This document shows, in pieces, positions 9,798 through 58,773 of a stretch of DNA of 64,000 bases; position 1 is the first letter of the stretch; each line of letters opens with the position of its first letter. Source of the DNA: Candidatus Campbellbacteria bacterium (lineage in GTDB: Bacteria > Patescibacteriota > Minisyncoccia > Phycocordibacterales > EsbW-18); NCBI GenBank assembly GCA_016699465.1, contig CP064977.1:619739-683738 (forward strand), written 5' to 3'. Position numbers and translations under genes: made by a program. A model generated the notes under the pieces. It ran no database searches. It was not told the DNA's origin and saw nothing but the letters and a program-made list of their open reading frames with translations.

Positions 9798-10370
9798 ATG
9801 CAATACAACACCATCGTCATTCTTGGAAAGCCTGGTTCTGGAAAAGGTACGCAGGCAAAACTTTTATCAGACAACGTCGGATTTCCTGTGTTTTCGGCAT
9901 CAGGACAACTTAAGGCTCTCGCGGCGTCACATCCAGATCTCGGTGAAGAAATTCTTAACGATATGGATCACGGTATTCTTGTGCCTCATTGGATTATTTC
10001 ATATTTGTGGATTTCGGCAGTCGTTGATTTAGGGCACGACAAGGGAATTATTTTTGATGGGGCGGTTCGTAAGATGGAAGAGGCAACACTTTTTAATGAG
10101 GTAATGCAGTATTTGAAACGTCCATATGTGGTTGTCTATCTCACTATTCCTGACGAAGAATTGCGCACTCGTATTAAAGAGCGTGCGCGTGTTGAAGATC
10201 GAGCCGACGACGATGAGACCATCATCACCAAGCGTTTAGAAGAATACCAAAATAATACACAAGGTTCACTCGATTTTTTCAAACGACAGGGAACACTTCT
10301 CGAAGTTGAGGGTATGGGAACCGTTGAAGAAGTGCACGAGCGAATTATCAAAGCACTTTCCAATCAATAA
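9798..10370 (+). CDS. adk: adenylate kinase (short form)
   Basis: VILGKPGSGKGTQAKLLS P-loop; TKRLEEYQNNTQGSLDFF; directly downstream of secY. Confidence 0.85.
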   Translation: MQYNTIVILGKPGSGKGTQAKLLSDNVGFPVFSASGQLKALAASHPDLGEEILNDMDHGILVPHWIISYLWISAVVDLGHDKGIIFDGAVRKMEEATLFNEVMQYLKRPYVVVYLTIPDEELRTRIKERARVEDRADDDETIITKRLEEYQNNTQGSLDFFKRQGTLLEVEGMGTVEEVHERIIKALSNQ

Positions 10371-11349: not shown

Positions 11350-11366
11350 AGTGCTGGGTATAATGA
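11350..11366 (+). promoter_or_regulatory. extended -10 promoter element (tgggTATAAT) upstream of the T4CP-like gene
   Basis: gtgctgggtataatg at 11352-11366, about 80 nt before ATG 11447. The A/C-rich leader caaactaaaaccaatcaccaacttctcactcccaacccctcacc resembles the leaders of rpmI and infC. Confidence 0.4.
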
Positions 11367-11446
11367 ATGCAACGTCCAAAACACAAAAAGTTTCAAACTA
11401 AAACCAATCACCAACTTCTCACTCCCAACCCCTCACCTCTAGTACT

Positions 11447-14212
11447 ATGGAAACCTTCTCATTGACGCCTGAAAAAAAGTTCACCACACCCGATGAAGAG
11501 GTTACTTTTTTGCGTGAGCGTTTAAAGCAACTTGAGACAAACGTGAATGCGGGAACACATGAACTAACGCATGAAACTCCTGAAAAAGAGGTAATACACA
11601 CATATGCACAGCATGAACCGCAAAACATTCTCGCCAAAGGTCATGAAATGCTCCAACCGGAAGTTGATGCGATTGTGTTAGACCTTGCCCCAGAGGAACA
11701 TGACTCGGTCATTGCGGAGCTTCTCTCGGTGATGCAAAAAAAAGGAATACGCAACGCACTTTCCATTGTCGAAAAAATGAACAACCCTCACGTGGAAGAT
11801 GATTTTCACAGGTTTCTAGCTGAATATTTGAAAGAAGGACATGTTGCAAGGGGAATCAAAGAAGGCGAACCGTTGTGGAAGGCTCTCCACATGACACTTC
11901 TTGAAGTATTACTGCCATTTACCTCAAAAGAGGCACAAGAACACCAGAAACCACTCAAAGAACTCCTCTCATCGATGGAGCAATTGTATGCTGGTGCGTT
12001 GTCGGTTGCGTCTGAAAAAGGATCAAAGAAAAAATATTTTTCTCTCGAGCTTGCCGTTGAGGCGCACCTTGAACATGTAACGCTCTACATGTCGGTACCA
12101 TCTGAAAAGAAGGACACTTTTGAAAAACAAATACTTTCTATTTTTCCACAAGCACGCGTGATGGAGTGCAAGAATGACTACAATATTTTTGTTCCCGAAG
12201 GAAAAACAGCTGGCTCGATTGCTGCATACGCACGATCATGTGCGTATCCGCTGAAAACGTATGAGCATTTTGATCAAGATCCACTCACCATTCTTCTTTC
12301 TGCGTTTGCAAAATTGTTGCGTGTGGGAGAAGGGGCCGCACTCCAAGTGCTTGTTCGTCCGGCTGAAACTAACTATACAGAAAAACTAAGAAAGGCGTTA
12401 GAAAAACTTTCAAAAGGAACCCCTACAAAAAAAGCTCTCGATCTCTCATCGTCATTTATTGATGATGTCGGTAAGGAAATGAAAGAGGTGAAGAAAATGT
12501 TTTTTCCTGAGAAAAAGAAAGAAGACGAAGATACAAAGCCAAAAATTATTGATGAAGTTGCTATTGAGCAGGTCAAGCAAAAAATGGCACACACAATTGT
12601 TGAGGCTAACATTCGACTTCTTGCTTCATCAACAACACAGGTGCGTTCAGACGCGATTCTTTCTGAAATGGAGGCGACGTTTAATCAACTTGAGGACCCA
12701 CGTGGTAACGCTTTGAAATTTACGCGTTACACAAAGGTAAAACTTGCGAAACTTGTAAAGGATTTTGCGTTTCGGTTGTTTTCTTCCGATGCCCTACTTC
12801 CTATGAATCTCCAGGAACTTGCAACGTTTGCGCATGTACCGGCGGTGGGAAGTGACTCGTCTCGTGAATTGAAGCGCGTGAAGGCGGGGGGTTCTCCAGC
12901 GCCAGTTGATTTACCAATAGAAGGTTTGTTGCTTGGTGAAAATATATACGGAAATACCAAGACGCCTGTTTATATGACGGAGGAAGATCGACTACGTCAT
13001 TTCTACTGTATCGGACAGACTGGAGTGGGAAAGACAACGCTCCTCAAAAACATGATTATTCAGGACATCAAAAATGGGGAGGGGGTGTGCATGGTTGACC
13101 CGCATGGTTCTGATCTCATGGAAGTGCTTGCAAATATTCCACCAGAACGTGTTGATGATGTCATTTACTTTGATCCAGCATATACGGCGCGACCGATGGG
13201 GCTCAATATGCTTGAGTATGATGTAACGCGCCCGGAGCAGAAGACATTTGTAGTGAATGAACTCTTTTCTATTTTTCAAAAATTGTACGAAGGTTCTCCA
13301 GAGAGTATGGGGCCAATGTTTGAGCAGTACTTCCGTAATGCAACAATGCTGGTTATTGAGGATCCAGAGACAGGAAACACGCTTTTTGACGTATCGCGTG
13401 TTATGTCAGAAAAAGCATTTCGTGATCTAAAGCTCTCGAGATGTAAAAATCCTGTGGTGGTGCAGTTTTGGCGGGAGGTTGCTGAAAAAGCTGGTGGGGA
13501 AGCATCTCTGGCAAACATGGTGCCCTACATCACGAGTAAATTCGATGTATTTCTTGCCAATGACATCATGCGTCCGATTGTGATGCAAAAACACTCCGCA
13601 TTTAACTTTAGGGATATCATGGATAATCGTAAAATTCTTTTGGTGAACCTTTCCAAAGGGCGTCTCGGTGATATCAACGCAAATCTCATTGGTATGATTA
13701 TTGTCGGCAAGATTCTTATGGCCGCTCTCTCCCGTGTGGACGCGGTGAGCGCTGGTCAAAAACTTCCGAATTTTTATCTGTATATTGATGAATTCCAAAA
13801 TATAAGTACGGACTCTATTGCCACAATTCTTTCGGAGGCACGTAAATATAAACTAGGGCTGATTATTTTTCACCAATTTATCAAACAGTTGAGTGAAAAA
13901 ATAAAAGACGCCGTGTTTGGTAACGTGGGAACGATATGTGCGTACCGTGTTGGCTCTGAAGATGCTGAATTTTTGGAAAAACAATTTGCGCCCGTCTTTA
14001 CTGCATACGATTTGATGAATGTAGACAACTTCAATGGATTTTTAAAGATGTTGGTGCGCAATAAAACAGAACGCCCATTTTCACTCCATGCGTATAATTC
14101 TCCAAAAGGTGACAGGGCCACATTGGAAAAAATGAAAGAGCTTTCGTATTTGAAGTACGGTCGTCCTCGCGAAGAACTTGAAGCTGAAATTAATTCGAAG
14201 TACAAAATCTGA
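11447..14212 (+). CDS. TraD/TrwB/VirD4-like (type IV coupling protein family) P-loop ATPase with a ~500-aa N-terminal domain of unknown function; no predicted TM segment
   Basis: C-terminal half has Walker A YCIGQTGVGKTTLL, DPHGSD, Walker B FYLYIDEFQ and ARKYKLGLIIFHQFIKQL...AVFGN, the layout of TrwB/TraD/VirD4. N-terminal 500 aa is unrecognised. Paralog at 56911..58773. Confidence 0.7.
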   Translation: METFSLTPEKKFTTPDEEVTFLRERLKQLETNVNAGTHELTHETPEKEVIHTYAQHEPQNILAKGHEMLQPEVDAIVLDLAPEEHDSVIAELLSVMQKKGIRNALSIVEKMNNPHVEDDFHRFLAEYLKEGHVARGIKEGEPLWKALHMTLLEVLLPFTSKEAQEHQKPLKELLSSMEQLYAGALSVASEKGSKKKYFSLELAVEAHLEHVTLYMSVPSEKKDTFEKQILSIFPQARVMECKNDYNIFVPEGKTAGSIAAYARSCAYPLKTYEHFDQDPLTILLSAFAKLLRVGEGAALQVLVRPAETNYTEKLRKALEKLSKGTPTKKALDLSSSFIDDVGKEMKEVKKMFFPEKKKEDEDTKPKIIDEVAIEQVKQKMAHTIVEANIRLLASSTTQVRSDAILSEMEATFNQLEDPRGNALKFTRYTKVKLAKLVKDFAFRLFSSDALLPMNLQELATFAHVPAVGSDSSRELKRVKAGGSPAPVDLPIEGLLLGENIYGNTKTPVYMTEEDRLRHFYCIGQTGVGKTTLLKNMIIQDIKNGEGVCMVDPHGSDLMEVLANIPPERVDDVIYFDPAYTARPMGLNMLEYDVTRPEQKTFVVNELFSIFQKLYEGSPESMGPMFEQYFRNATMLVIEDPETGNTLFDVSRVMSEKAFRDLKLSRCKNPVVVQFWREVAEKAGGEASLANMVPYITSKFDVFLANDIMRPIVMQKHSAFNFRDIMDNRKILLVNLSKGRLGDINANLIGMIIVGKILMAALSRVDAVSAGQKLPNFYLYIDEFQNISTDSIATILSEARKYKLGLIIFHQFIKQLSEKIKDAVFGNVGTICAYRVGSEDAEFLEKQFAPVFTAYDLMNVDNFNGFLKMLVRNKTERPFSLHAYNSPKGDRATLEKMKELSYLKYGRPREELEAEINSKYKI

Positions 14213-14345: not shown

Positions 14346-14936
14346 ATGCAACGAAACCCAAAAGAAGAGAGGACATTTGTGATGATTAAACCCGATGGTG
14401 TTCGGAAGGGTCTTATTGGTGAAATTATTCACCGTTTTGAACAGCGCGACATGAAAATCGTTGCTCTTGAGATGTTTCAGCCAACACTGAAACAGATTGA
14501 TAATCATTATCCAAAGAGCAAAGCATGGATTACGCGTCTTGGTGAAAAGACGTCGGCTACGTATGAGAAGTATGGATACTCCTTAAAGAAAGATTTTGGT
14601 ACTAACGACAAGTTTCAAATAGGAAAAATGGTTCGTGGATGGCTTATTAAGTACATGGTTTCAGCACCATTGGTTAAAATGGTGGTGCAGGGCATTCATT
14701 CTGTTGATTTGGTTCGTAAAATTGTTGGTCCAACATTGCCATACATGGCTGAAATGGGAACTATTCGAGGAGATTTTTCAGCTGATTCTCCAGCGCTTGC
14801 TAATGCGGAGAAGCGTGCCGTTATGAATCTTGTGCACGCATCAGAGACACCTGAAGAAGCACTACACGAAATAGAGCACTGGTTTGGAAAGACTCCTGTC
14901 TATGCATACAAGCGATTTGGAATTGATGAAGGATAA
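14346..14936 (+). CDS. ndk: nucleoside diphosphate kinase (with ~45-aa internal insertion)
   Basis: ERTFVMIKPDGVRKGLIGEIIHRFE...NLVHASETPEEA.HEIEHWF; at 196 aa it is longer than canonical Ndk. Confidence 0.8.
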   Translation: MQRNPKEERTFVMIKPDGVRKGLIGEIIHRFEQRDMKIVALEMFQPTLKQIDNHYPKSKAWITRLGEKTSATYEKYGYSLKKDFGTNDKFQIGKMVRGWLIKYMVSAPLVKMVVQGIHSVDLVRKIVGPTLPYMAEMGTIRGDFSADSPALANAEKRAVMNLVHASETPEEALHEIEHWFGKTPVYAYKRFGIDEG

Positions 14937-14950
14937 AAATGAAAAACAAA

Positions 14951-14977
14951 AAAACCGCCATGTAGGCGGTTTTTTTG
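14951..14977 (+). terminator. rho-independent terminator after ndk
   Basis: aaccgcc-atgta-ggcggtt followed by ttttttt. Confidence 0.75.
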
Positions 14978-15451: not shown

Positions 15452-15865
15452 GTGCCTTTACGACATCAAAAAATTTTCCTCTTTACTCTATTGTTCCTTG
15501 CAGTAGCTGTGTATTTTCTTAATGAAACAGGACAAGTGCACTTTTTTTACTGGAAGTACTGGTGGTATGACATCATGATGCATTTTCTCGGTGGTTTTGT
15601 TGTATCTGGATTTGGATCGTGGGTATATATTTGTCCTACCTCATCAAATAGTATGACTCTTCGACGTACACTCGCACTCTCTGTTGGTATTGGTATGAGT
15701 ATTGGTATCGGCTGGGAGTTGTTTGAATATTTCAACGGTATATATGCCGATCAACCCGGCATCGTTGCTGACACGGCAGGAGATTTGTTCATGGATTGTA
15801 TCGGCTCAATTGTTTCAGGGCTTGTGGTGTACTGTACATTTATACGACTACGTTGCATAGAATAA
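15452..15865 (+). CDS. hypothetical membrane protein
   Basis: 137 aa with 3-4 hydrophobic helices, W/Y-rich; no recognised family. Confidence 0.45.
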   Translation: MPLRHQKIFLFTLLFLAVAVYFLNETGQVHFFYWKYWWYDIMMHFLGGFVVSGFGSWVYICPTSSNSMTLRRTLALSVGIGMSIGIGWELFEYFNGIYADQPGIVADTAGDLFMDCIGSIVSGLVVYCTFIRLRCIE

Positions 15866-15867
15866 CT

Positions 15868-17262
15868 ATGTCAGACACTATGAATACACACACAGAGAAG
15901 GGGCATGTAACACTTGGATTTTATGGTGGCGTTGGTACCGTAACTGGTGCGAATTTCCTTTTAAGTACTCCGGAAGGAAACGTTATTGTTGATTGTGGTA
16001 TGTTTCAGGGTATGCGTATGTGCAATCCAAATAATGCAAATATGTTTGGATATGATCTCTCGACACTCGATGCCCTCATTGTGACACACGCACATATTGA
16101 TCATATTGGACGTATTCCAAAATTAGTGAAGGATGGATTCCGTGGCCCTATTTACTCAACTATCGAAACACGGGAGCTTGCCGAAGTAATGCTTCCTGAC
16201 GCTGCTGGTCTCATTGTGAAAGAGGCGATTTTGTGCGGAGAAGAACCTTCATATACTGCCGAAGATGTTGCGCCAGTGTTTCTTCAGTGGAAAACGGTTC
16301 CGTACTATACGCCGTTTACCATTGCTGATATGACGTTTGAATTTAAAAATGCAGGCCACATTCTTGGTTCGGCGCTTGTGCAATGTATCCACCCGTCCGT
16401 TGGAAAGATTATATTTACAGGTGATTTGGGTAACTCGCCGTCGCTCATTATGAAAGACACGGATGTTATTGAGGATGCAAATATTTTAGTAATGGAGAGC
16501 GTGTATGGGGATCGTGTGCACGAAGAGGTGCCTGACCGTCTCGCACAATTAGAAGACGTTATTGAAAACACCATTAAAAACAAAGGTACACTTCTTATTC
16601 CAACATTTTCGATTGAACGCACACAAAATATTCTGTATGAAGTAAATATGCTCATTGAAGAAGCACGTATTCCACACATTGATGTGTATCTTGATTCGCC
16701 ACTGGCGACAGCGGTAACTGAAGTGTACAAACGTCATCCAGATAACTTTAACGAAAAAACACAACAAGCGATTGCGGCGGGGGATGATGTGTTTGCGTTC
16801 AAAGGATTGAGGGTGGTGAGCTCTACACAAGAGTCAAAGGCGATTTATGAAACTCCGGGGCCAAAAATTATTATTGCTGGTTCAGGTATGTCACACGGAG
16901 GACGCATTATCGGGCACGAAAAGCATTACCTCTCAGATCCGTTGTGTACGTTGTTGATTGTTGGATATCAAACGCCGGGAAGTTTGGGGCGACAGCTCGC
17001 CGATGGTGCAAAGAAAGTTACGATCGGAAAAGAAGAAATTGATATTCACGCCACGGTGCGCTCAGTATCAGGGTATTCAGGTCACCGTGATATGAATGGC
17101 CTCATCCGTTTTGTGAATGCGACAAGTTTAACCCTACGAAAAGTGTTTGTAACAATGGGCGAGCCAAAGACATCTCAATTTTTTGCACAACGACTTCGTG
17201 ACTACCTTGGTGTGAATGCTGTCTATCCAAATCTCCATGATGTGGTGGATATCTCAAAGTAG
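15868..17262 (+). CDS. MBL-fold beta-CASP family hydrolase (RNA-metabolising metallo-beta-lactamase-like)
   Basis: HAHIDHIGRIPKL motif (HxHxDH), GDLGNSP and later Asp/His motifs, C-terminal beta-CASP-like region; start at ATG 15868. Confidence 0.7.
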   Translation: MSDTMNTHTEKGHVTLGFYGGVGTVTGANFLLSTPEGNVIVDCGMFQGMRMCNPNNANMFGYDLSTLDALIVTHAHIDHIGRIPKLVKDGFRGPIYSTIETRELAEVMLPDAAGLIVKEAILCGEEPSYTAEDVAPVFLQWKTVPYYTPFTIADMTFEFKNAGHILGSALVQCIHPSVGKIIFTGDLGNSPSLIMKDTDVIEDANILVMESVYGDRVHEEVPDRLAQLEDVIENTIKNKGTLLIPTFSIERTQNILYEVNMLIEEARIPHIDVYLDSPLATAVTEVYKRHPDNFNEKTQQAIAAGDDVFAFKGLRVVSSTQESKAIYETPGPKIIIAGSGMSHGGRIIGHEKHYLSDPLCTLLIVGYQTPGSLGRQLADGAKKVTIGKEEIDIHATVRSVSGYSGHRDMNGLIRFVNATSLTLRKVFVTMGEPKTSQFFAQRLRDYLGVNAVYPNLHDVVDISK

Positions 17263-25047: not shown

Positions 25048-25069
25048 CATGGTGTAGTATGTGTGGATT

Positions 25070-25639
25070 ATGAAAAGAGAGGTTGAAATATTGGCGGAGG
25101 TATTTGATACGAAGAAAGCGGCTCTACGCAAGCTCAAAGGTTTGACGTTTCAGGGCAATAAAAAGACCCTAGACGTGTATTTTTTTGACCCTAAGAGAAA
25201 AGACCTACAACCAGACAAGCGTGGTCAACTAAAGCAGTGTTTGCGGGTTAGAAGTAAGGATGGAAAAGCATCCGTTGCATATAAGGTAGACCATTTTGAT
25301 ACGAAAGGGGTGTGGCTCTATTCAGATGAATATGAGACAGCGGTTGAGAATTTTTTGAAGACAGAAGAGATTTTTAAGAAGTTGGGATTGAAAGAATTGG
25401 TGCGGATAGAAAACACCAAGTCAACATTTGTAAATGATATCTATGAAGTTGTTCTTGAAGATGTTAAGGGTTTAGGTCTTTTTATGGAGGTTGAAAGGCA
25501 CAATGTTGGCGCTCGGGAAAATATTGTAAAGGTGAAAAAAGAGATTGTGGATTGGATACAAAAAATGGGTATACGTGTGAGTGCTGAGCTTACGATGGGT
25601 AAACCAGAATTAATGTTACGAAAGAAAAAGGAGAAGTAG
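25070..25639 (+). CDS. CYTH-domain protein (CyaB/thiamine-triphosphatase-like)
   Basis: MKREVEILAEVFD start (ExE motif) and later acidic and basic CYTH-like residues; 189 aa. Confidence 0.5.
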   Translation: MKREVEILAEVFDTKKAALRKLKGLTFQGNKKTLDVYFFDPKRKDLQPDKRGQLKQCLRVRSKDGKASVAYKVDHFDTKGVWLYSDEYETAVENFLKTEEIFKKLGLKELVRIENTKSTFVNDIYEVVLEDVKGLGLFMEVERHNVGARENIVKVKKEIVDWIQKMGIRVSAELTMGKPELMLRKKKEK

Positions 25640-29183: not shown

Positions 29184-29362
29184 AGTAGTAGAAGTTAGAA
29201 GTTGGTGATTGGTTTTGGTTTGGTGGTTGGTTAAAATGTAGCGCTACTATAGCACATTTTCCTGTTTATACAATATTTTATCGGTGGTTCTTTTTGCTGG
29301 CGCGCTTCTGTAGTTTTGCTATAGTTAGTCTGCACAATAATAATGCACAACACAGGTTACGT

Positions 29363-47706: not shown

Positions 47707-48117
47707 ATGGAAGAACAAAAACCAAAGGTAGGAGTTGGGGTTATTATCATTAAAGACGGTAAGGTTTTATTAGGTAAACGAAAAGGTTCACATGGAGAAG
47801 GCTTGTGGGCTTTTTCAGGTGGACATCTTGAGTTTGGTGAAGATATTTTTACATGCGCAAAACGTGAAGTTATGGAGGAAACAGGAGTTGAAATTACCAA
47901 TCTTCGCAATGCGACATTTACAAATGATATTTTTGAAAAGGAAGGAAAACATTATGTTACATTGTTTGTAGTTGCAGAGATTCTTTCTGGGGTTGTAGAA
48001 GTGAAAGAGCCAAACAAATGTGAGGGATGGGAGTGGTTTTCATGGGACTCGTTACCTCAACCACTCTTTGTACCTATTCAAAACCTTCTTGTGCAAGACT
48101 TTTCTCCGTTCGAGTAA
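47707..48117 (+). CDS. NUDIX hydrolase
   Basis: GGHLEFGEDIFTCAKREVMEETGVEI is the Nudix box. Confidence 0.8.
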   Translation: MEEQKPKVGVGVIIIKDGKVLLGKRKGSHGEGLWAFSGGHLEFGEDIFTCAKREVMEETGVEITNLRNATFTNDIFEKEGKHYVTLFVVAEILSGVVEVKEPNKCEGWEWFSWDSLPQPLFVPIQNLLVQDFSPFE

Positions 48118-49696: not shown

Positions 49697-50185
49697 ATGC
49701 ACAAAAGAAAGCTGACATTCTGGCAAAAAGGTATTCATTTTTTTAATCCAGTGATGTATCCGTTTGTACATCTGTACTGGTTTTTGACACGGCCGCGCTC
49801 TGCAGGGGCAAAGGTTGTTATCACACATGAAGATCACGTGCTCGTTGTTGAACACACGTATGGCTCGGGTTCAAATATGTTTCCAGGTGGAGTGATTGAG
49901 CGTGGTGAAGAACCAGATAGGACTGCATTGAGAGAAGTGGAAGAAGAACTGGGCATTGTACTCGAAGAAGTTATTCCACTAGGCTCTTTTGAGTTTGAGG
50001 GGCATTATAAACAAGATACGATACACGTGTTTCATGGAAGGGTACAAAGTAGAGAGGTGTACCCTGATCCATTTGAAATCAGGAATGTGTTTTGGTTTCC
50101 AGTGCACAGCATGCCACAATTAAGTCGGGCATCAAAAACCATTTTTGATATGTACCAAGATTATGCACAACGTACTCAATCATAA
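49697..50185 (+). CDS. NUDIX hydrolase
   Basis: PGGVIERGEEPDRTALREVEEELGIV is the Nudix box. Confidence 0.75.
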   Translation: MHKRKLTFWQKGIHFFNPVMYPFVHLYWFLTRPRSAGAKVVITHEDHVLVVEHTYGSGSNMFPGGVIERGEEPDRTALREVEEELGIVLEEVIPLGSFEFEGHYKQDTIHVFHGRVQSREVYPDPFEIRNVFWFPVHSMPQLSRASKTIFDMYQDYAQRTQS

Positions 50186-56010: not shown

Positions 56011-56767
56011 GTGAACACTTTCCCCGTCTTTGTTTCGTGCTCAGTTCGCATTACGAGTCACGCAGTGACCCGCTACCTTCATTGGAAGCGGAAGTTGCTT
56101 GGGTGGCCTAGTTCGAAGTCGCTCGCTCGTCAGGAAATCCTCCACGCACTTGGGTTCGCGGTTCCCTGCACGTTAGATAATCTTCTAACGTACCGTCAGA
56201 GTTCCGATAAGTGGGGATTCCCGGTCATTTTTTATCATACGTCTCCGTGGAGATTCGTGATAAAAGATGAAAATCCGTACGAGTGGGTCGTTCTCACCAT
56301 CGAGCCCGATGTGTACCCAAACAACACGGGTCCATGGAAGGGGGTTGAGGGGGTTTCAGAAATTGCCCTCGATCCACCGTTCACCATTGGTGATATTGTG
56401 CGCTACAAGGGGTACAAGACTCAGGCCGATAGACGCCAACAAAGGGAGGAGAAAGGAGATGGTGAACCCATCGTGTTGCTTCTTGGTGGGTCGACTCGAA
56501 GTGGGAGATGTTATCCTTACTTTGACAAGTTACACCAAGGGGAACGTGCGGGTGCGGGTTGTGCGCGGCGGGAGGGCCTTGCAGTGGGTCCACTCACGTG
56601 ACGGTTTTCAGTTCGAGGGGTGGTTTGACGGTATCTCATGTCCCACAGAGTTGGGACGAACACTCAAGGTCGTTGCCAACATGTCTGGTTGTACGGGCGT
56701 CGTTGAGCATTCTCTCGACGAAGAGTTGAAGAGCGGGGGGTGGGTCGCGTTTCGCCTCGTGCAATAG
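56011..56767 (+). pseudogene. hypothetical gene in GC-rich island, apparently frameshifted
   Basis: Protein-like frame from GTG 56011 (RBS aaaggagg) to about 56465, continuing in the +1 frame from about 56475 to 56767. Region 55.95-56.78 kb is GC-rich. Confidence 0.4.
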
Positions 56768-56910
56768 CTGTAGTTGTTCTTGTGGGAAAAAAGTGTGCCG
56801 AGATGTCTGCGAGGACAGCTCGGCGCTTTTTCTTTTCTCCTTTTGTGTTTTATACTACTATTGATAATTTTATATTCTACATTCATTCTTTTGTATTCTA
56901 TTTTTCACAC

Positions 56911-58773
56911 ATGTCTGATCCAAATCGTATTACATACATCGGCGAAACGGATTATCGCAACAAGCGAGTGAAGTTTGGTATTAAAGCAAAGGACAGGCTT
57001 CGTCATGTGTACGCTATCGGAAAAACTGGAACAGGTAAGTCGACGCTTCTTGAAAACATGGCAGTGCAAGATATTCAGAACGGTGAAGGATTTGCGTTCA
57101 TTGATCCGCACGGAAAAAGTGCCGACTTACTTCTCGATTACATCCCCGAAAATCGTGTAAATGATGTTTTATACTTTGCACCATTTGATCTCAATAATCC
57201 GGTGTCATTCAACGTTATGGAAGATGTTGGTGCTGATAAGCGCCACCTTGTCGTTGCGGGTTTGATGTCTGTATTTAAAAAGATTTGGGTTGATGCGTGG
57301 AGTGCTCGTATGGAATATATTTTGAGTAACACTATTGCAGCACTTCTCGAATACCCAGGATCGACGCTTCTCTCGGTGAATCGAATGCTCGTTGATAAAG
57401 AGTTTAGAAACACCGTTGTGTCACATGTGACTGATCCAGGCGTAAAAGCGTTTTGGGAACAAGAGTTTGCAAAATATACCGATAAGTTTGCCGCCGAAGC
57501 AACACCTGCAATACAAAACAAAGTGGGACAATTTACTGGAAATCCAGTTATCCGAAATCTCATTGGTCAACCAAAGTCCACATTCAATATTCGTGACATG
57601 ATGGATCAGAAAAAAATTATTATCATAAACCTTTCAAAAGGGCAGGTTGGTGAAGATAATGCAAACCTTCTTGGGTCAATGCTCATTACAAAAATTTATC
57701 TTGCCGCAATGTCGCGCGCTGATTTACGAGAACAAGATTTAAACAAATTGCCAAATTTCTATTTGTACGTGGACGAATTTCAGTCTTTTGCAAACGAATC
57801 ATTTGCCGACATTCTTTCAGAAGCTCGAAAATATAAATTGAATCTTACTATCGCACATCAGTACATTGAACAAATGTCTGAAGAAGTACGTGCGGCAGTA
57901 TTTGGTAACGTGGGAACACTCGTCACTTTCCGTGTCGGTGCAACAGATGCAGAATATTTGGAAAAAGAATTTACACCGACGTTTCTTGCAGAGGATTTAG
58001 TTGGTATTGGTGCATACAGGATGTATTTGAAACTTATGATTGATGGTATGGCATCAGCTCCTTTCTCAGCTGCGGGACTGCCACCAATTACACTACCTCC
58101 GATTTCATATCGTGATGTTGCTATCGGTCGTTCGCGTGCACAATTTTCGCGTCCTCGAGCAATTGTTGAGGATGAGATTTTGAAGTGGCATCAAAAAAAG
58201 TTCACTGTTGCCAGCGATGGTGTAAAAAAAGAAAAAGAGGGTGAGAAAGGAGTAAAAGAACATTCACACGAAGAGGATCGTGGACACACAGAACAGCCGC
58301 GACCACAAACACAATCTCAACCGTTAGTACAACATCAGCCGCGGTCCCAGCCACAACCTCATTCTCAGTCACGATTTCAAAATAATCTGAGTAGGCGTTT
58401 TAATGACAAAAAACCATTAAGCCCCGCGGATAGGGAAACAGAACTTAGAAAGGCAGTGTCTCTTTCGCAACTTCGACCTGAAGAAAAACTACACGAGAAA
58501 AAACCGAACAAAGGACCAACGCCAGAACATTTATCGGCTCTTAGGGATGCGCTGTCGGCAGTTGTGGGAAAAATGCCTGTATCCTCTGAAAAAAAACAAG
58601 CCCCGATGTCTGCACCTGCACCAGCTTCCAAAATAGAGACAAATCCTCAACATGGAGGATCAGTTTCTTTTGCACAAAAAACCTCTGAAGAAAAATCAAA
58701 AGAACCAAAGGCAAATGAAGTTCCTGAAGTTGTCCTGAAAAAACTCTTTGAGCGCGAAACGGAAGGAAAATAA
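56911..58773 (+). CDS. TraD/TrwB/VirD4-like P-loop ATPase (paralog of 11447..14212) with Q/P-rich disordered C-terminal tail
   Basis: Walker A VYAIGKTGTGKSTLL, DPHGKS, Walker B FYLYVDEFQ, ARKYKLNLTIAHQYIEQM...AVFGN; collinear with residues ~500-900 of the first paralog; start at ATG 56911. Confidence 0.7.
   Translation: MSDPNRITYIGETDYRNKRVKFGIKAKDRLRHVYAIGKTGTGKSTLLENMAVQDIQNGEGFAFIDPHGKSADLLLDYIPENRVNDVLYFAPFDLNNPVSFNVMEDVGADKRHLVVAGLMSVFKKIWVDAWSARMEYILSNTIAALLEYPGSTLLSVNRMLVDKEFRNTVVSHVTDPGVKAFWEQEFAKYTDKFAAEATPAIQNKVGQFTGNPVIRNLIGQPKSTFNIRDMMDQKKIIIINLSKGQVGEDNANLLGSMLITKIYLAAMSRADLREQDLNKLPNFYLYVDEFQSFANESFADILSEARKYKLNLTIAHQYIEQMSEEVRAAVFGNVGTLVTFRVGATDAEYLEKEFTPTFLAEDLVGIGAYRMYLKLMIDGMASAPFSAAGLPPITLPPISYRDVAIGRSRAQFSRPRAIVEDEILKWHQKKFTVASDGVKKEKEGEKGVKEHSHEEDRGHTEQPRPQTQSQPLVQHQPRSQPQPHSQSRFQNNLSRRFNDKKPLSPADRETELRKAVSLSQLRPEEKLHEKKPNKGPTPEHLSALRDALSAVVGKMPVSSEKKQAPMSAPAPASKIETNPQHGGSVSFAQKTSEEKSKEPKANEVPEVVLKKLFERETEGK

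What the first reader, a model, noticed from the sequence alone, without database searches (positions are those of the whole stretch)
11447..14212. Soluble TrwB/TraD/VirD4-like ATPase fused to a 500-aa unknown N-terminal domain, embedded after map in the ribosomal supercluster, with a second orphan paralog
Where infA, rpmJ, rpsM, rpsK, rpsD, rpoA and rplQ normally follow map, this locus has a 921-aa protein. Its C-terminal half carries the full type IV coupling protein motif set (Walker A, DPHG, hhhhDEFQ, ARKYK..HQ...FGN). It has no N-terminal TM anchor and no neighbouring relaxase, VirB4 or other T4SS genes. A 620-aa paralog (56911-58773) with a Q/P-rich disordered tail sits next to a GC-rich frameshifted gene. 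Two orphan, apparently cytoplasmic T4CP-family ATPases, one under an extended -10 promoter with an A/C-rich leader shared with infC/rpmI, suggest these DNA/substrate-pumping ATPases have been co-opted for something other than conjugation. The N-terminal 500 aa could be a new effector or recognition domain.
Basis: partly seen in the sequence, partly recalled or inferred. Interest (0 to 1): 0.7.

Follow-up and report, generated by a model that had tools for sequence, protein, structure and literature searches.

The report
Domesticated conjugation-type ATPase in Patescibacteria
This 921-residue protein belongs to a conserved core-gene family of ultrasmall Patescibacteria, related to the motor that feeds DNA into conjugation channels and carrying a VirB4-like docking domain at its N-terminus; the family has been catalogued, but its job is unknown.

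Summary
A 921-aa ORF (11447-14212) follows secY-adk-map. It has every stated ATPase motif and no transmembrane helix, and no T4SS or relaxase gene lies in the 64-kb window. A 620-aa paralog (56911-58773) is 43% identical over the ATPase.

Neither gene is an orphan. The long form occurs in at least 594 species-representative genomes, all labelled as Patescibacteria or unclassified MAGs, and about half keep the map-X-ndk position. The short form gave more than 8000 hits. An ortholog is already listed as a "T4CP homologue not near virB4" in Quiñonero-Coronel et al. 2025.

Homologs with the same architecture sit immediately upstream of relaxases in Firmicutes conjugative plasmids and in Bacillus phage CP-51.

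Most likely it is a vertically inherited coupling-type ATPase that docks on a membrane platform, probably the Patescibacteria T4SS. That function is inferred, not shown.

The parts
11359..11364 (+). TATAAT -10-like box upstream of the ATPase gene. TG lies at 11355-11356, one base further upstream than in a canonical extended -10.
   Evidence: Read directly from the sequence. The consensus scan found no -35 partner. Promoter function is inferred.
11394..11423 (+). A/C-rich 5' leader element of about 30 nt, shared almost exactly with the infC leader (about 29193-29222, minus strand).
   Evidence: Exact 18-mer at 11402-11419 and at 29197-29214 (minus); 0.07 matches expected by chance. Alignment.
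11447..14212 (+). CDS of the 921-aa DUF8128 + T4CP-type ATPase protein. It is identical to an NCBI entry named 'TraM recognition domain-containing protein [Candidatus Campbellbacteria bacterium]'.
11447..11866 (+). aa 1-140: soluble all-helical head, conserved in the ~920-aa homologs aligned in A1 (PEEHD and DDFHRFL motifs). In the ~800-aa relatives a TM helix takes its place.
   Evidence: Alignment A1; AF2 model; TM variants P0373, P0380, P0383, P0355.
11888..12829 (+). aa 148-461: alpha/beta core of DUF8128, with a VirB4 N-terminal-domain-like fold.
12926..14086 (+). aa 494-880: P-loop ATPase domain of the VirB4/T4CP clade. Walker A is at nt 13013-13036. An all-helical insert spans aa 596-713 (nt 13232-13585). 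Walker B FYLYIDEFQ is at nt 13772-13798. ARKYK, HQ and FGN follow.
14117..14203 (+). aa 891-919: conserved C-terminal helical tail (LKELSYLKYGR..E.E motif).
   Evidence: Alignment A1; AF2 secondary structure.
14346..14936 (+). ndk, the conserved downstream neighbour, probably co-transcribed with the ATPase gene.
   Evidence: Pfam NDK. ndk lies within five genes downstream in 30 of 61 related loci with enough flank. No terminator-like site lies between the two genes.
14947..14977 (.). Terminator-like hairpin flanked by A-run and T-run, just after ndk. It is the likely end of the ATPase-ndk transcript.
   Evidence: 13-bp stem with a T-tail.
56911..58773 (+). Short paralog (620 aa): T4CP-type ATPase without DUF8128, with a disordered Q/P-rich tail.
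   Evidence: Conserved neighbours are murC, rsmI-like, LTD/PKD and glycosyltransferase genes.

Best explanation
The gene encodes a chromosomally fixed, vertically inherited member of a coupling-protein-related ATPase family. The family is Pfam DUF8128 fused to a T4CP-type P-loop domain. It descends from the DNA-transfer machinery of single-membrane (monoderm) bacteria.

**Anatomy (shown).**
- A 140-aa helical head.
- A VirB4-N-terminal-domain-like alpha/beta domain.
- A TrwB/VirB4-type ATPase with intact Walker A and B motifs and the other TrwB-aligned motifs, plus an all-helical insert.
- A conserved C-terminal tail.

**Mechanism (inferred).** Like TrwB and VirB4, it assembles into a ring-shaped NTPase. 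The VirB4-like N-terminal domain docks the ring on a membrane platform. In this lineage that domain and the helical head replace the transmembrane anchor seen in relatives. The platform is most probably the chromosomal T4SS-like apparatus of Patescibacteria, whose gene cluster lacks a recognisable coupling protein. ATP hydrolysis then recruits and pushes a macromolecular substrate (protein or DNA) into that channel. The short paralog at 56911-58773 probably acts in the same process.

The gene is probably transcribed with ndk from its own promoter, behind a leader it shares with infC. This fits a housekeeping gene rather than a mobile-element gene.
For: **Family size and vertical inheritance.**
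- More than 120 full-length homologs of 54-88% identity were found.
- map lies within five genes upstream in 32 of 64 loci with enough flank, and ndk downstream in 30 of 61.
- GC content is native: 0.427 against 0.44 for the window.
- 179 residues, including the Walker A/B and ARKY/HQ/FGN motifs, are invariant across 30 sequences that share only 54-83% identity overall.

**ATPase type.**
- The best PDB profile hit is TrwB, followed by DotL.
- NCBIfam gives partial TraD hits.
- Ortholog KKR20588.1 is listed as T4CP (t4cp1 profile, 88% coverage). That genome also encodes a separate VirB4, VirB3 and VirB2.

**Membrane link.**
- Relatives of about 800 aa have an N-terminal TM helix in front of the same core.
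- In Uhrbacteria, a TM-anchored stand-alone DUF8128 protein is encoded directly before two soluble T4CP-type ATPases. One is the ortholog of the window's short paralog at 47% identity.

**Ancestral role.**
- Homologs covering aa ~194-880 (BLASTP E 8e-35) lie immediately upstream of a relaxase in B. subtilis and B. methanolicus plasmids. TcpC, TcpE and an AAA_10 VirB4-type ATPase follow.
- In Bacillus phage CP-51 the homolog gp91 precedes a Replic_Relax protein. In phage G, gp156 follows a VirB4-like protein.
- phrog_5156 matches aa 173-917 (E 1e-76).

**Literature.**
- The Patescibacteria T4SS is essential in S. epibionticum and lacks a recognisable coupling protein in its cluster (PMC10633639).
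- 5,713 T4CP homologues were found in 2,918 of 3,035 genomes, and only 148 lie near virB4 (PMC12102498).
Against: - The gene is never adjacent to virB4 or other T4SS genes in the 80 related loci.
- T4CP homologues are more widespread (2,918 of 3,035 genomes) than VirB4 (2,417 of 3,035). Some draft genomes scored VirB4-negative still carry them.
- A t4cp homologue of S. epibionticum was reported as not essential, while T4SS genes were. Which paralog that was is unknown.
- No relaxase lies in the window. Relaxases are rare in the phylum (109 in 3,035 genomes), so classical DNA conjugation is unlikely.
- Oligomeric state, ATPase activity, membrane docking and substrate are all untested.
- The structural fold cannot separate a T4CP from a VirB4 C-terminal domain.
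Confidence: 0.5

Rival explanations
1. It is a T4SS-independent nucleic-acid translocase. The ATPase pulls DNA or RNA across or along the membrane, for example for uptake that feeds nucleotide salvage or for competence. It does not serve the T4SS.
For: - T4CP homologues are more prevalent than VirB4 and are almost never linked to it.
- The conserved neighbourhood is rich in nucleotide-handling genes. These are adk, an AA_kinase (UMP-kinase-like), cytidylate kinase, ndk, a beta-CASP nuclease, HD, CYTH and SLOG proteins. NUDIX and CYTH genes also lie elsewhere in the window.
- The ATPase and ndk are probably co-transcribed.
- Patescibacteria lack de novo nucleotide synthesis, and a comEC deletion is viable, so the route of nucleotide acquisition remains open.
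- The family's relatives act on DNA: TrwB, and homologs paired with relaxases.
Against: - adk and map belong to the universal ribosomal-protein cluster, so part of the 'nucleotide' context is not specific.
- Half of the loci lie in other housekeeping contexts: dcw genes, recR/dnaB/cysS, sigma/anti-sigma.
- No membrane channel partner is encoded nearby.
- No direct evidence of DNA binding exists.
Confidence: 0.2
2. It is functionally a second, divergent VirB4-type assembly ATPase, meaning N-terminal domain plus C-terminal domain and a role in machine or pilus biogenesis, and not a substrate-coupling protein.
For: - The whole architecture matches VirB4. Full-length Foldseek top hits are TrwK/VirB4 (E 2.4e-13, about 890-920 aligned columns).
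- The TM-anchored 800-aa variants resemble VirB3-VirB4 fusions. This comparison is from my own knowledge and was not tested.
Against: - Sequence profiles favour T4CP: TrwB, TraD and the CONJscan t4cp1 profile. The only VirB4-type match is a 14-bit NCBIfam hit, and Pfam CagE_TrbE_VirB and AAA_10 give none.
- Genomes with this protein also carry a canonical VirB4 with VirB3 and TrsD.
- In Firmicutes plasmids the homolog occupies the slot next to the relaxase, while a separate AAA_10 VirB4 is present.
Confidence: 0.15
3. It is a remnant of an integrated conjugative element, plasmid or prophage and has no host function.
For: Homologs occur in Firmicutes plasmids and Bacillus phages.
Against: - GC content is native.
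- No integrase, relaxase or T4SS genes lie in the 64-kb window.
- The gene order is the same in about half of 77 species-level representatives.
- Identity is 54-88% over the full length in hundreds of genomes, with invariant catalytic motifs.
- PADLOC gives only weak hits.
Confidence: 0.03
4. It is a HerA/FtsK-like housekeeping or defence ATPase, acting in DNA repair, chromosome segregation or anti-phage defence.
For: - Pfam DUF87 (HerA central domain) scores 27 bits, above its cut-off.
- PADLOC gives mad8 at E 1e-12.
- In a few loci the gene lies next to dcw cell-division genes.
Against: - The DUF87 hit covers only the Walker A region (aa 502-554).
- No HAS-barrel, FtsK gamma domain, or NurA, Sir2 or other partner gene is present.
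- The fit to TrwB and VirB4 is better in both sequence and fold.
- Defence systems are not normally conserved in one position across a whole class.
Confidence: 0.07

Closest known systems
'Orphan' T4CP (VirD4-type) homologues of Patescibacteria, catalogued by Quiñonero-Coronel et al. 2025 (PMC12102498); Pfam DUF8128 (PF26449)
   Same: This is the same family. The identical protein P0001 carries PF26449. UniRef names a homolog 'DUF8128 domain-containing protein'. Ortholog KKR20588.1 is in the paper's Table S3 as T4CP / t4cp1, not near virB4.
   Different: Nothing differs at the family level. No paper in the searched library mentions DUF8128, and the three papers consulted do not mention the VirB4-like fold, the TM or split variants, or the plasmid and phage relatives.
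Conjugative coupling proteins TrwB (R388), VirD4, TraD and DotL
   Same: - The P-loop domain has the same motif order: RH..G.TG.GKT, DP.G, hhhhDE, R-K, Q.
- There is a helical insert between Walker A and Walker B.
- TrwB is the best PDB sequence-profile hit.
   Different: - No N-terminal transmembrane domain.
- About 490 extra N-terminal residues with a VirB4-like domain.
- Not linked to a relaxase or T4SS genes.
- Pfam scores sit only at threshold, around 20 bits.
VirB4 / TrwK (R388) and T. pseudethanolicus VirB4
   Same: - The two-domain architecture is the same.
- The protein is soluble and docks on membrane partners.
   Different: - Only one faint VirB4-type sequence-profile hit (14 bits).
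- A separate genuine VirB4 exists in related genomes.
- Not encoded with VirB3, VirB6 or VirB8.
'DUF87 domain-containing' proteins of 830-913 aa in Firmicutes plasmids (B. subtilis NRS6107_2 WP_213380696.1; B. methanolicus pBM69 WP_003349917.1; C. botulinum toxin plasmids)
   Same: - Homologous over the DUF8128 core plus the ATPase: aa ~194-880, 22% identity, E 8e-35.
- No TM helix.
   Different: - They are plasmid-borne.
- They lie immediately upstream of a replication-relaxation-type relaxase, inside a TcpC-TcpE-AAA_10 conjugation module.
- They lack the 140-aa helical head.
Bacillus phage proteins of phrog_5156 (phage G gp156, CP-51 gp91)
   Same: The profile match covers aa 173-917 (E 1e-76). 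BLASTP gives E 3e-39 to gp156.
   Different: - They are phage-encoded.
- They are paired with a VirB4-like protein (gp155) or a Replic_Relax nickase (gp90).
- Their function is unknown.
Soluble T4CP TraJ of pIP501 (from my own knowledge; not tested here)
   Same: It is a coupling protein that lacks its own membrane anchor and relies on a partner for membrane recruitment.
   Different: As far as I know TraJ has no VirB4-like N-terminal domain. It belongs to a plasmid tra operon.

Membership tests
Type IV coupling protein (VirD4/TraD/TrwB) | P-loop nucleotide-binding domain with T4CP sequence signature | tested here: met
   - Pfam T4SS-DNA_transf scores 20.5 bits against a cut-off of 20.1. TrwB_AAD_bind (20.1 against 20.5) and TraG-D_C (21.4 against 22) fall just below.
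- The PDB profile search puts TrwB first.
- NCBIfam gives partial TraD hits.
- The ortholog scores 88% coverage of the CONJscan t4cp1 profile in a published table.
- All of these scores are weak.
Type IV coupling protein (VirD4/TraD/TrwB) | All-alpha domain inserted in the nucleotide-binding domain | tested here: inconclusive
   The AF2 model has a helical block at aa 596-713 between Walker A and Walker B. TM-score to TrwBΔN70 is about 0.63. Confidence in this block is mostly pLDDT 52-81, and the block was not superposed on its own.
Type IV coupling protein (VirD4/TraD/TrwB) | N-terminal transmembrane anchor | tested here: not met
   This protein has no hydrophobic segment in the first 500 aa. 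Relatives of about 800 aa do have one. The feature is not universal among T4CPs (PMC7431656 abstract).
Type IV coupling protein (VirD4/TraD/TrwB) | Genetic linkage to a relaxase and/or a mating-pair-formation (T4SS) cluster | tested here: not met
   None is present in the 64-kb window or in 80 related loci. The feature is met for the Firmicutes plasmid and phage homologs.
Type IV coupling protein (VirD4/TraD/TrwB) | Recruits substrates to a T4SS channel | not testable with these tools
   Needs genetics or biochemistry.
VirB4 | VirB4-type N-terminal domain | tested here: met
   [not shown]
VirB4 | VirB4-type C-terminal ATPase by sequence (CagE_TrbE_VirB / AAA_10 / P-loop_TraG profiles) | tested here: not met
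   [not shown]
VirB4 | Encoded with VirB3, VirB6 and VirB8 | tested here: not met
   Absent from the window and from related loci. A distinct VirB4 next to VirB3 exists elsewhere in a related genome.
DUF8128 (PF26449) | Match to the Pfam model | tested here: met
   Precomputed Pfam hits exist for the identical protein P0001 and for all 120 listed homologs. The model is missing from the local Pfam copy, so it could not be re-scored.
HerA / FtsK-SpoIIIE | HerA central domain with HAS-barrel, or FtsK alpha/beta/gamma motor | tested here: not met
   [not shown]
Anti-phage defence ATPases (PADLOC) | Significant full-length match to a defence-system model, with partner genes | tested here: not met
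   Only mad8 (46 bits, partial) and weak HerA hits were found. There are no partner genes, and the context is housekeeping.

The most novel reading that the evidence does not exclude
The DUF8128 ATPase, with its short paralog, is the missing motor of the essential Patescibacteria T4SS-like apparatus, or of a separate channel. It is used to move host-derived nucleic acid or other macromolecules for nutrient acquisition. This would explain three things: its retention as a core gene, its probable co-transcription with ndk, and its embedding among NMP/NDP kinases and a beta-CASP nuclease. The large, fast-evolving, signal-peptide-less proteins encoded next to it in about 15 related loci would then be its substrates or adaptors.
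Probability: 0.12. Interest if true: 0.8.

Novelty: new variant of a known kind. Interest (0 to 1): 0.5.

Why it matters
Patescibacteria make up a large share of bacterial diversity and live attached to other microbes. How they obtain building blocks from their hosts is unknown. Their T4SS-like machine is essential in the one species tested, but no coupling ATPase has been assigned to it.

This family is present in nearly every genome of the group and is conserved at housekeeping level. It derives from conjugative coupling proteins. That makes it an obvious candidate for the missing motor, or for a new non-conjugative use of this kind of motor.

Three observations give concrete handles for experiments: the VirB4-like docking domain, the membrane-anchored and split variants, and the plasmid and phage relatives paired with relaxases. 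They also suggest that T4CP and VirB4 architectures are less distinct than usually drawn.

The gene itself is an ordinary member of a catalogued family, so the value lies in the family and not in this locus.

Tried and rejected
- **Local Pfam on the N-terminus.** A scan of aa 1-518 at E ≤ 10 found only noise. PF26449 is not in the local copy.
- **Exact look-up of the short paralog.** The 620-aa form is not on record, because gene callers used an upstream GTG start.
- **Search for a conserved partner gene in 80 loci.** Clustering found none that is universal. DUF5663 small proteins are adjacent in only 8 loci. The Cys-rich ~580-aa family occurs in 7 loci. The large Pfam-less neighbours fall into several unrelated small clusters. 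What first looked like pilus genes (clusters c25, c33, c30) read, from their sequences and without a Pfam scan, as FtsI, MurF and RmuC, so there is no general link to type IV pili.
- **Profile search with the N-terminal core alone.** It returned only 22 hits, mostly fragments. It did lead to the Uhrbacteria split operon.
- **The AFDB Foldseek library** was unavailable.
- **Fold comparison** could not decide between VirB4 and T4CP for the C-terminal domain.
- **Literature.** A search for DUF8128 found nothing. A search combining Replic_Relax, DUF87, 'coupling protein' and 'VirB4 N-terminal' returned four papers, none of which by title or abstract concerns this architecture. pLS20's own T4CP is a canonical protein with two TM helices, so pLS20 is not the right comparator.
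- **Mobile-element remnant, defence system and FtsK/HerA readings** were considered and rejected (see the rival explanations).
Full report
**1. What is in the sequence**

The ORF 11447-14212 (+) encodes 921 aa. Upstream lies the end of the ribosomal-protein cluster: S8, L6, L18, S5, L15, SecY, an unassigned ORF, Adk and Map. Downstream come ndk, a small ORF, a beta-CASP/MBL nuclease, a SLOG (LDcluster4) protein and a GNAT.

The genes infA to rplQ do not follow map, either here or elsewhere in the window.

There is no hydrophobic segment in the first 500 residues.

The second gene (56911-58773, 620 aa) is 43% identical over 385 aa of the ATPase domain (E 3e-104). It lacks the long N-terminus and ends in a Q/P-rich tail.

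None of the window ORFs that were scanned, or that are covered by the gene table, is a VirB-type, relaxase or integrase gene. Rfam finds a 16S rRNA gene, a tmRNA and three tRNAs. The window is ordinary chromosome from a Candidatus Campbellbacteria genome. The identical protein is in NCBI under that name, on an 811-kb contig.

**2. Neither gene is an orphan**

- The 921-aa protein has more than 120 listed full-length homologs of 54-88% identity. All carry Pfam PF26449, which is DUF8128.
Every titled record is a Patescibacteria or unclassified MAG.
- Across 30 sequences that share only 54-83% identity, 179 residues are invariant, including the catalytic motifs.
- The short paralog saturated its search: all 8000 scored candidates were significant. 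Sources name these proteins 'type IV secretion system DNA-binding domain-containing protein'.
- The position is inherited. Among 77 species-representative loci, map lies within five genes upstream in 32 of 64 with enough flank. ndk lies downstream in 30 of 61, and both hold in 23 of 53.
- The remaining loci are also housekeeping. By reading the sequences, they hold rsmH-ftsL-ftsI-murF, rmuC/recR/dnaB/cysS, or a sigma/anti-sigma pair with tgt.
- The GC content of the gene equals that of the window.
- The short paralog has its own conserved setting: murC, an rsmI-like methylase, a small ORF, the paralog, an LTD/PKD protein and glycosyltransferases.

**3. The ATPase half**

Sequence profiles place it with coupling proteins, but weakly.
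- Pfam T4SS-DNA_transf scores 20.5 bits against a cut-off of 20.1. TrwB_AAD_bind and TraG-D_C fall just below their cut-offs. DUF87 matches only around Walker A.
- NCBIfam gives partial TraD hits.
- A profile of the family finds TrwB first and DotL second among all PDB sequences. The alignment shows the Walker B / R-K / Q block lining up with TrwB.

**4. The N-terminal half**

An AlphaFold2 model of aa 1-495, built on a 30-sequence alignment (mean pLDDT 80), shows two parts: a helical head (aa 1-130) and an alpha/beta domain (aa ~148-461).

P-loop ATPases, including the VirB4 C-terminal-only chain, are absent from that list. The match is therefore to the VirB4 N-terminal domain. The aligned length also exceeds the Hcp1 tag fused in that PDB entry.

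Foldseek on the full-length model independently ranks TrwK chains first. It finds E 2.4e-13 with about 890-920 aligned columns, including native chains from 8rtd.

So the 'unknown 500 aa' are a VirB4-type docking domain preceded by a lineage-specific helical head.

**5. Variants that point to the membrane**

An exhaustive phmmer search with aa 1-480 found 955 clusters at 50% identity. Besides the ~920-aa form there is a ~800-aa form. In it the match starts at about aa 145 of the query, and the head is replaced by an N-terminal TM helix (P0373, P0380, P0383, P0355).

In a Candidatus Uhrbacteria contig the module is split into four consecutive genes:
- A TM-anchored stand-alone DUF8128 protein (577 aa).
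- A 654-aa soluble T4CP-type ATPase, which is the ortholog of the window's short paralog at 47% identity.
- A 481-aa ATPase of the same type.
- A Cys-rich 579-aa protein.

This gene fusion and fission links DUF8128 functionally to both ATPase paralogs. It also indicates that the ancestral state was membrane-attached.

**6. Relatives outside Patescibacteria**

PHROGs family 5156 (function unknown) matches aa 173-917 at E 1e-76.

*Phages.* Bacillus phage G gp156 aligns over aa 175-872 and follows gp155, a VirB4-type protein (P-loop_TraG / AAA_10). Phage CP-51 gp91 is followed by gp90, a Replic_Relax protein.

*Plasmids.* In plasmids, 249 records have a match. In B. subtilis NRS6107_2 and B. methanolicus pBM69, a 'DUF87 domain-containing protein' of 913 or 833 aa is homologous over the DUF8128 core plus the ATPase (22% identity over 714 aa, E 8e-35). 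It has no TM helix. It sits directly upstream of a 'replication-relaxation family' relaxase. In the B. subtilis plasmid TcpC, TcpE and an 854-aa AAA_10 (VirB4-type) ATPase follow by Pfam, and pBM69 is annotated with the equivalent genes.

The same architecture therefore occupies the coupling-protein slot of monoderm conjugation modules. That it functions as the coupling protein there is inferred from position. I found no experiment on it.

**7. What the literature already says**

Quiñonero-Coronel et al. 2025 (PMC12102498) report three relevant points:
- 5,713 VirD4-type T4CP homologues occur in 2,918 of 3,035 Patescibacteria genomes, and only 148 lie near virB4.
- VirB4 is present in 2,417 genomes.
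- Exaptation of the t4cp homologues 'cannot be ruled out'.

I obtained NCBI accessions for orthologs. KKR20588.1, the L067 protein (921 aa), appears in their Table S3 as 'T4CP, t4cp1, 88% coverage, VirB4 proximity: No'. That genome also holds a separate VirB4, VirB3 and VirB2.

Wang et al. 2023 (PMC10633639) found the T4SS cluster essential in S. epibionticum and noted that it lacks recognisable coupling and relaxase proteins. No paper in the searched library mentions DUF8128.

**8. Mechanism**

*Shown.* The domain anatomy, the intact catalytic motifs, vertical inheritance, the membrane-anchored and split variants, and homology to plasmid and phage proteins paired with relaxases.

*Inferred.* The protein forms a ring ATPase, docks through the VirB4-like domain on a membrane platform, and drives a substrate into a channel. 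The most probable platform is the Patescibacteria T4SS.

*Points against a T4SS role.* The family is more widespread than VirB4, it is never linked to T4SS genes, and a t4cp homologue was reported as dispensable in S. epibionticum.

*Main rival.* A T4SS-independent nucleic-acid translocase. Three observations support it. The gene is probably co-transcribed with ndk, because no terminator lies between them and a terminator-like hairpin follows ndk at 14947-14977. The neighbourhood is rich in adk, UMP-kinase-like, cytidylate kinase, ndk, beta-CASP, HD and CYTH genes. How these organisms acquire nucleotides is still an open question.

*Second rival.* The protein acts as a second VirB4.

*Effectively excluded.* A mobile-element remnant, a defence ATPase, and FtsK/HerA.

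**9. Verdict**

It is wrong on two others: the genes are not orphans, and the N-terminus is not an unknown effector domain.

The locus is an ordinary member of a catalogued family of unknown function.

The added findings are these:
- The VirB4-like N-terminal domain.
- The TM and split variants.
- The link to relaxase-adjacent plasmid and phage proteins.
- The conserved housekeeping context.

They make the family a good experimental target. They do not make this locus categorically new.

Noticed in passing
window 11394-11423 (+) and about 29193-29222 (-): A near-identical A/C-rich leader of about 30 nt (CAAAC[T/C]AAAACCAATCACCAACTTCT[C/A]ACT) precedes both the ATPase gene and infC. In each case it lies downstream of a GTGCT..TATA(A/G)T box. 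The exact 18-mer occurs only at these two places in the window (0.07 expected). Among the 93 loci held at the time, a 14-nt core of it was found only in L001, the same genome.
   Followed up: partly
L094 6550-9969 (closest relative, 83% identical ortholog); also L002, L029, L036, L051, L071, L073, L075, L077 and others: Large proteins of 650-1740 aa lie within two genes of the ATPase in 15 loci. Most have no signal peptide or TM helix. The three sent to Pfam had no hit, and L002's has none on record. They evolve fast. In the close relative, a 1139-aa ORF fills the exact spot where the window has only a 257-bp spacer. They could be substrates or adaptors.
   Followed up: partly
L087 8001-14916 (Candidatus Uhrbacteria contig): A split operon: a TM-anchored stand-alone DUF8128 protein, two soluble T4CP-type ATPases (the 654-aa one has a treble-clef zinc finger in its tail), and a Cys-rich 579-aa protein. 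It lies next to secD/secF and lepA.
   Followed up: yes
L048 6901-8640; also L053, L056, L074, L076, L079; L087 13177-14916: A Pfam-less Cys-rich family of about 580 aa, with zinc-ribbon-like ends. One to three copies lie between adk and map, just upstream of the ATPase, in several Paceibacteria-type loci. One copy lies directly after the ATPases in Uhrbacteria (26% identity, E 3e-38).
   Followed up: partly
L002 9585-9896, L003 12977-13291, L051, L071, L075, L077, L049, L054: Small DUF5663 proteins of about 100 aa lie within three genes of the ATPase in 8 of 80 loci, often after a large unknown protein. None is present in the window.
   Followed up: yes
related loci L004-L083, between secY and the beta-CASP gene; window 9798-10370, 14346-14936, 25061-25639, 47707-48117, 49697-50185: The conserved neighbourhood concentrates nucleotide-handling genes: adk, an AA_kinase-family (UMP-kinase-like) gene, cytidylate kinase, ndk, HD, CYTH, SLOG and a beta-CASP nuclease. 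The window also holds a CYTH gene and two NUDIX genes further on.
   Followed up: partly
window 15796-17262: The best NCBIfam matches of the beta-CASP/MBL protein are the type VII CRISPR-associated Cas14 model (389 bits, cut-off 800) and archaeal aCPSF1 (307 bits, cut-off 580). RNase J matches are much weaker. It is an archaeal-type beta-CASP nuclease conserved next to DUF2238 in this gene order.
   Followed up: no
window 14346-14936: The NDK Pfam match is split into two stretches (aa 8-56 and 99-183). This suggests an insertion of about 40 residues in a 196-aa nucleoside diphosphate kinase.
   Followed up: no
window 56011-56767: A GC-rich island (53.6% against 44%) lies between the MFS transporter gene and the short paralog. 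It holds two overlapping ORFs (196 and 166 aa) with no Pfam hit. An inverted repeat followed by a T-run at about 56798-56832, read by eye and not scanned, follows it. It could be a frameshifted or foreign gene.
   Followed up: partly
[not shown]
   Followed up: no
L090 (Bacillus phage G gp155-gp156); L091 (phage CP-51 gp91-gp90): Bacillus phages carry the same long ATPase paired with a VirB4-type protein or with a Replic_Relax nickase. This is a conjugation-like DNA-processing pair inside phage genomes.
   Followed up: partly
L089 8001-10777: In one 516-kb contig the gene is called as three fragments (597 + 191 + 153 aa). This is probably frameshift errors or a pseudogene, not a true stand-alone DUF8128.
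   Followed up: no
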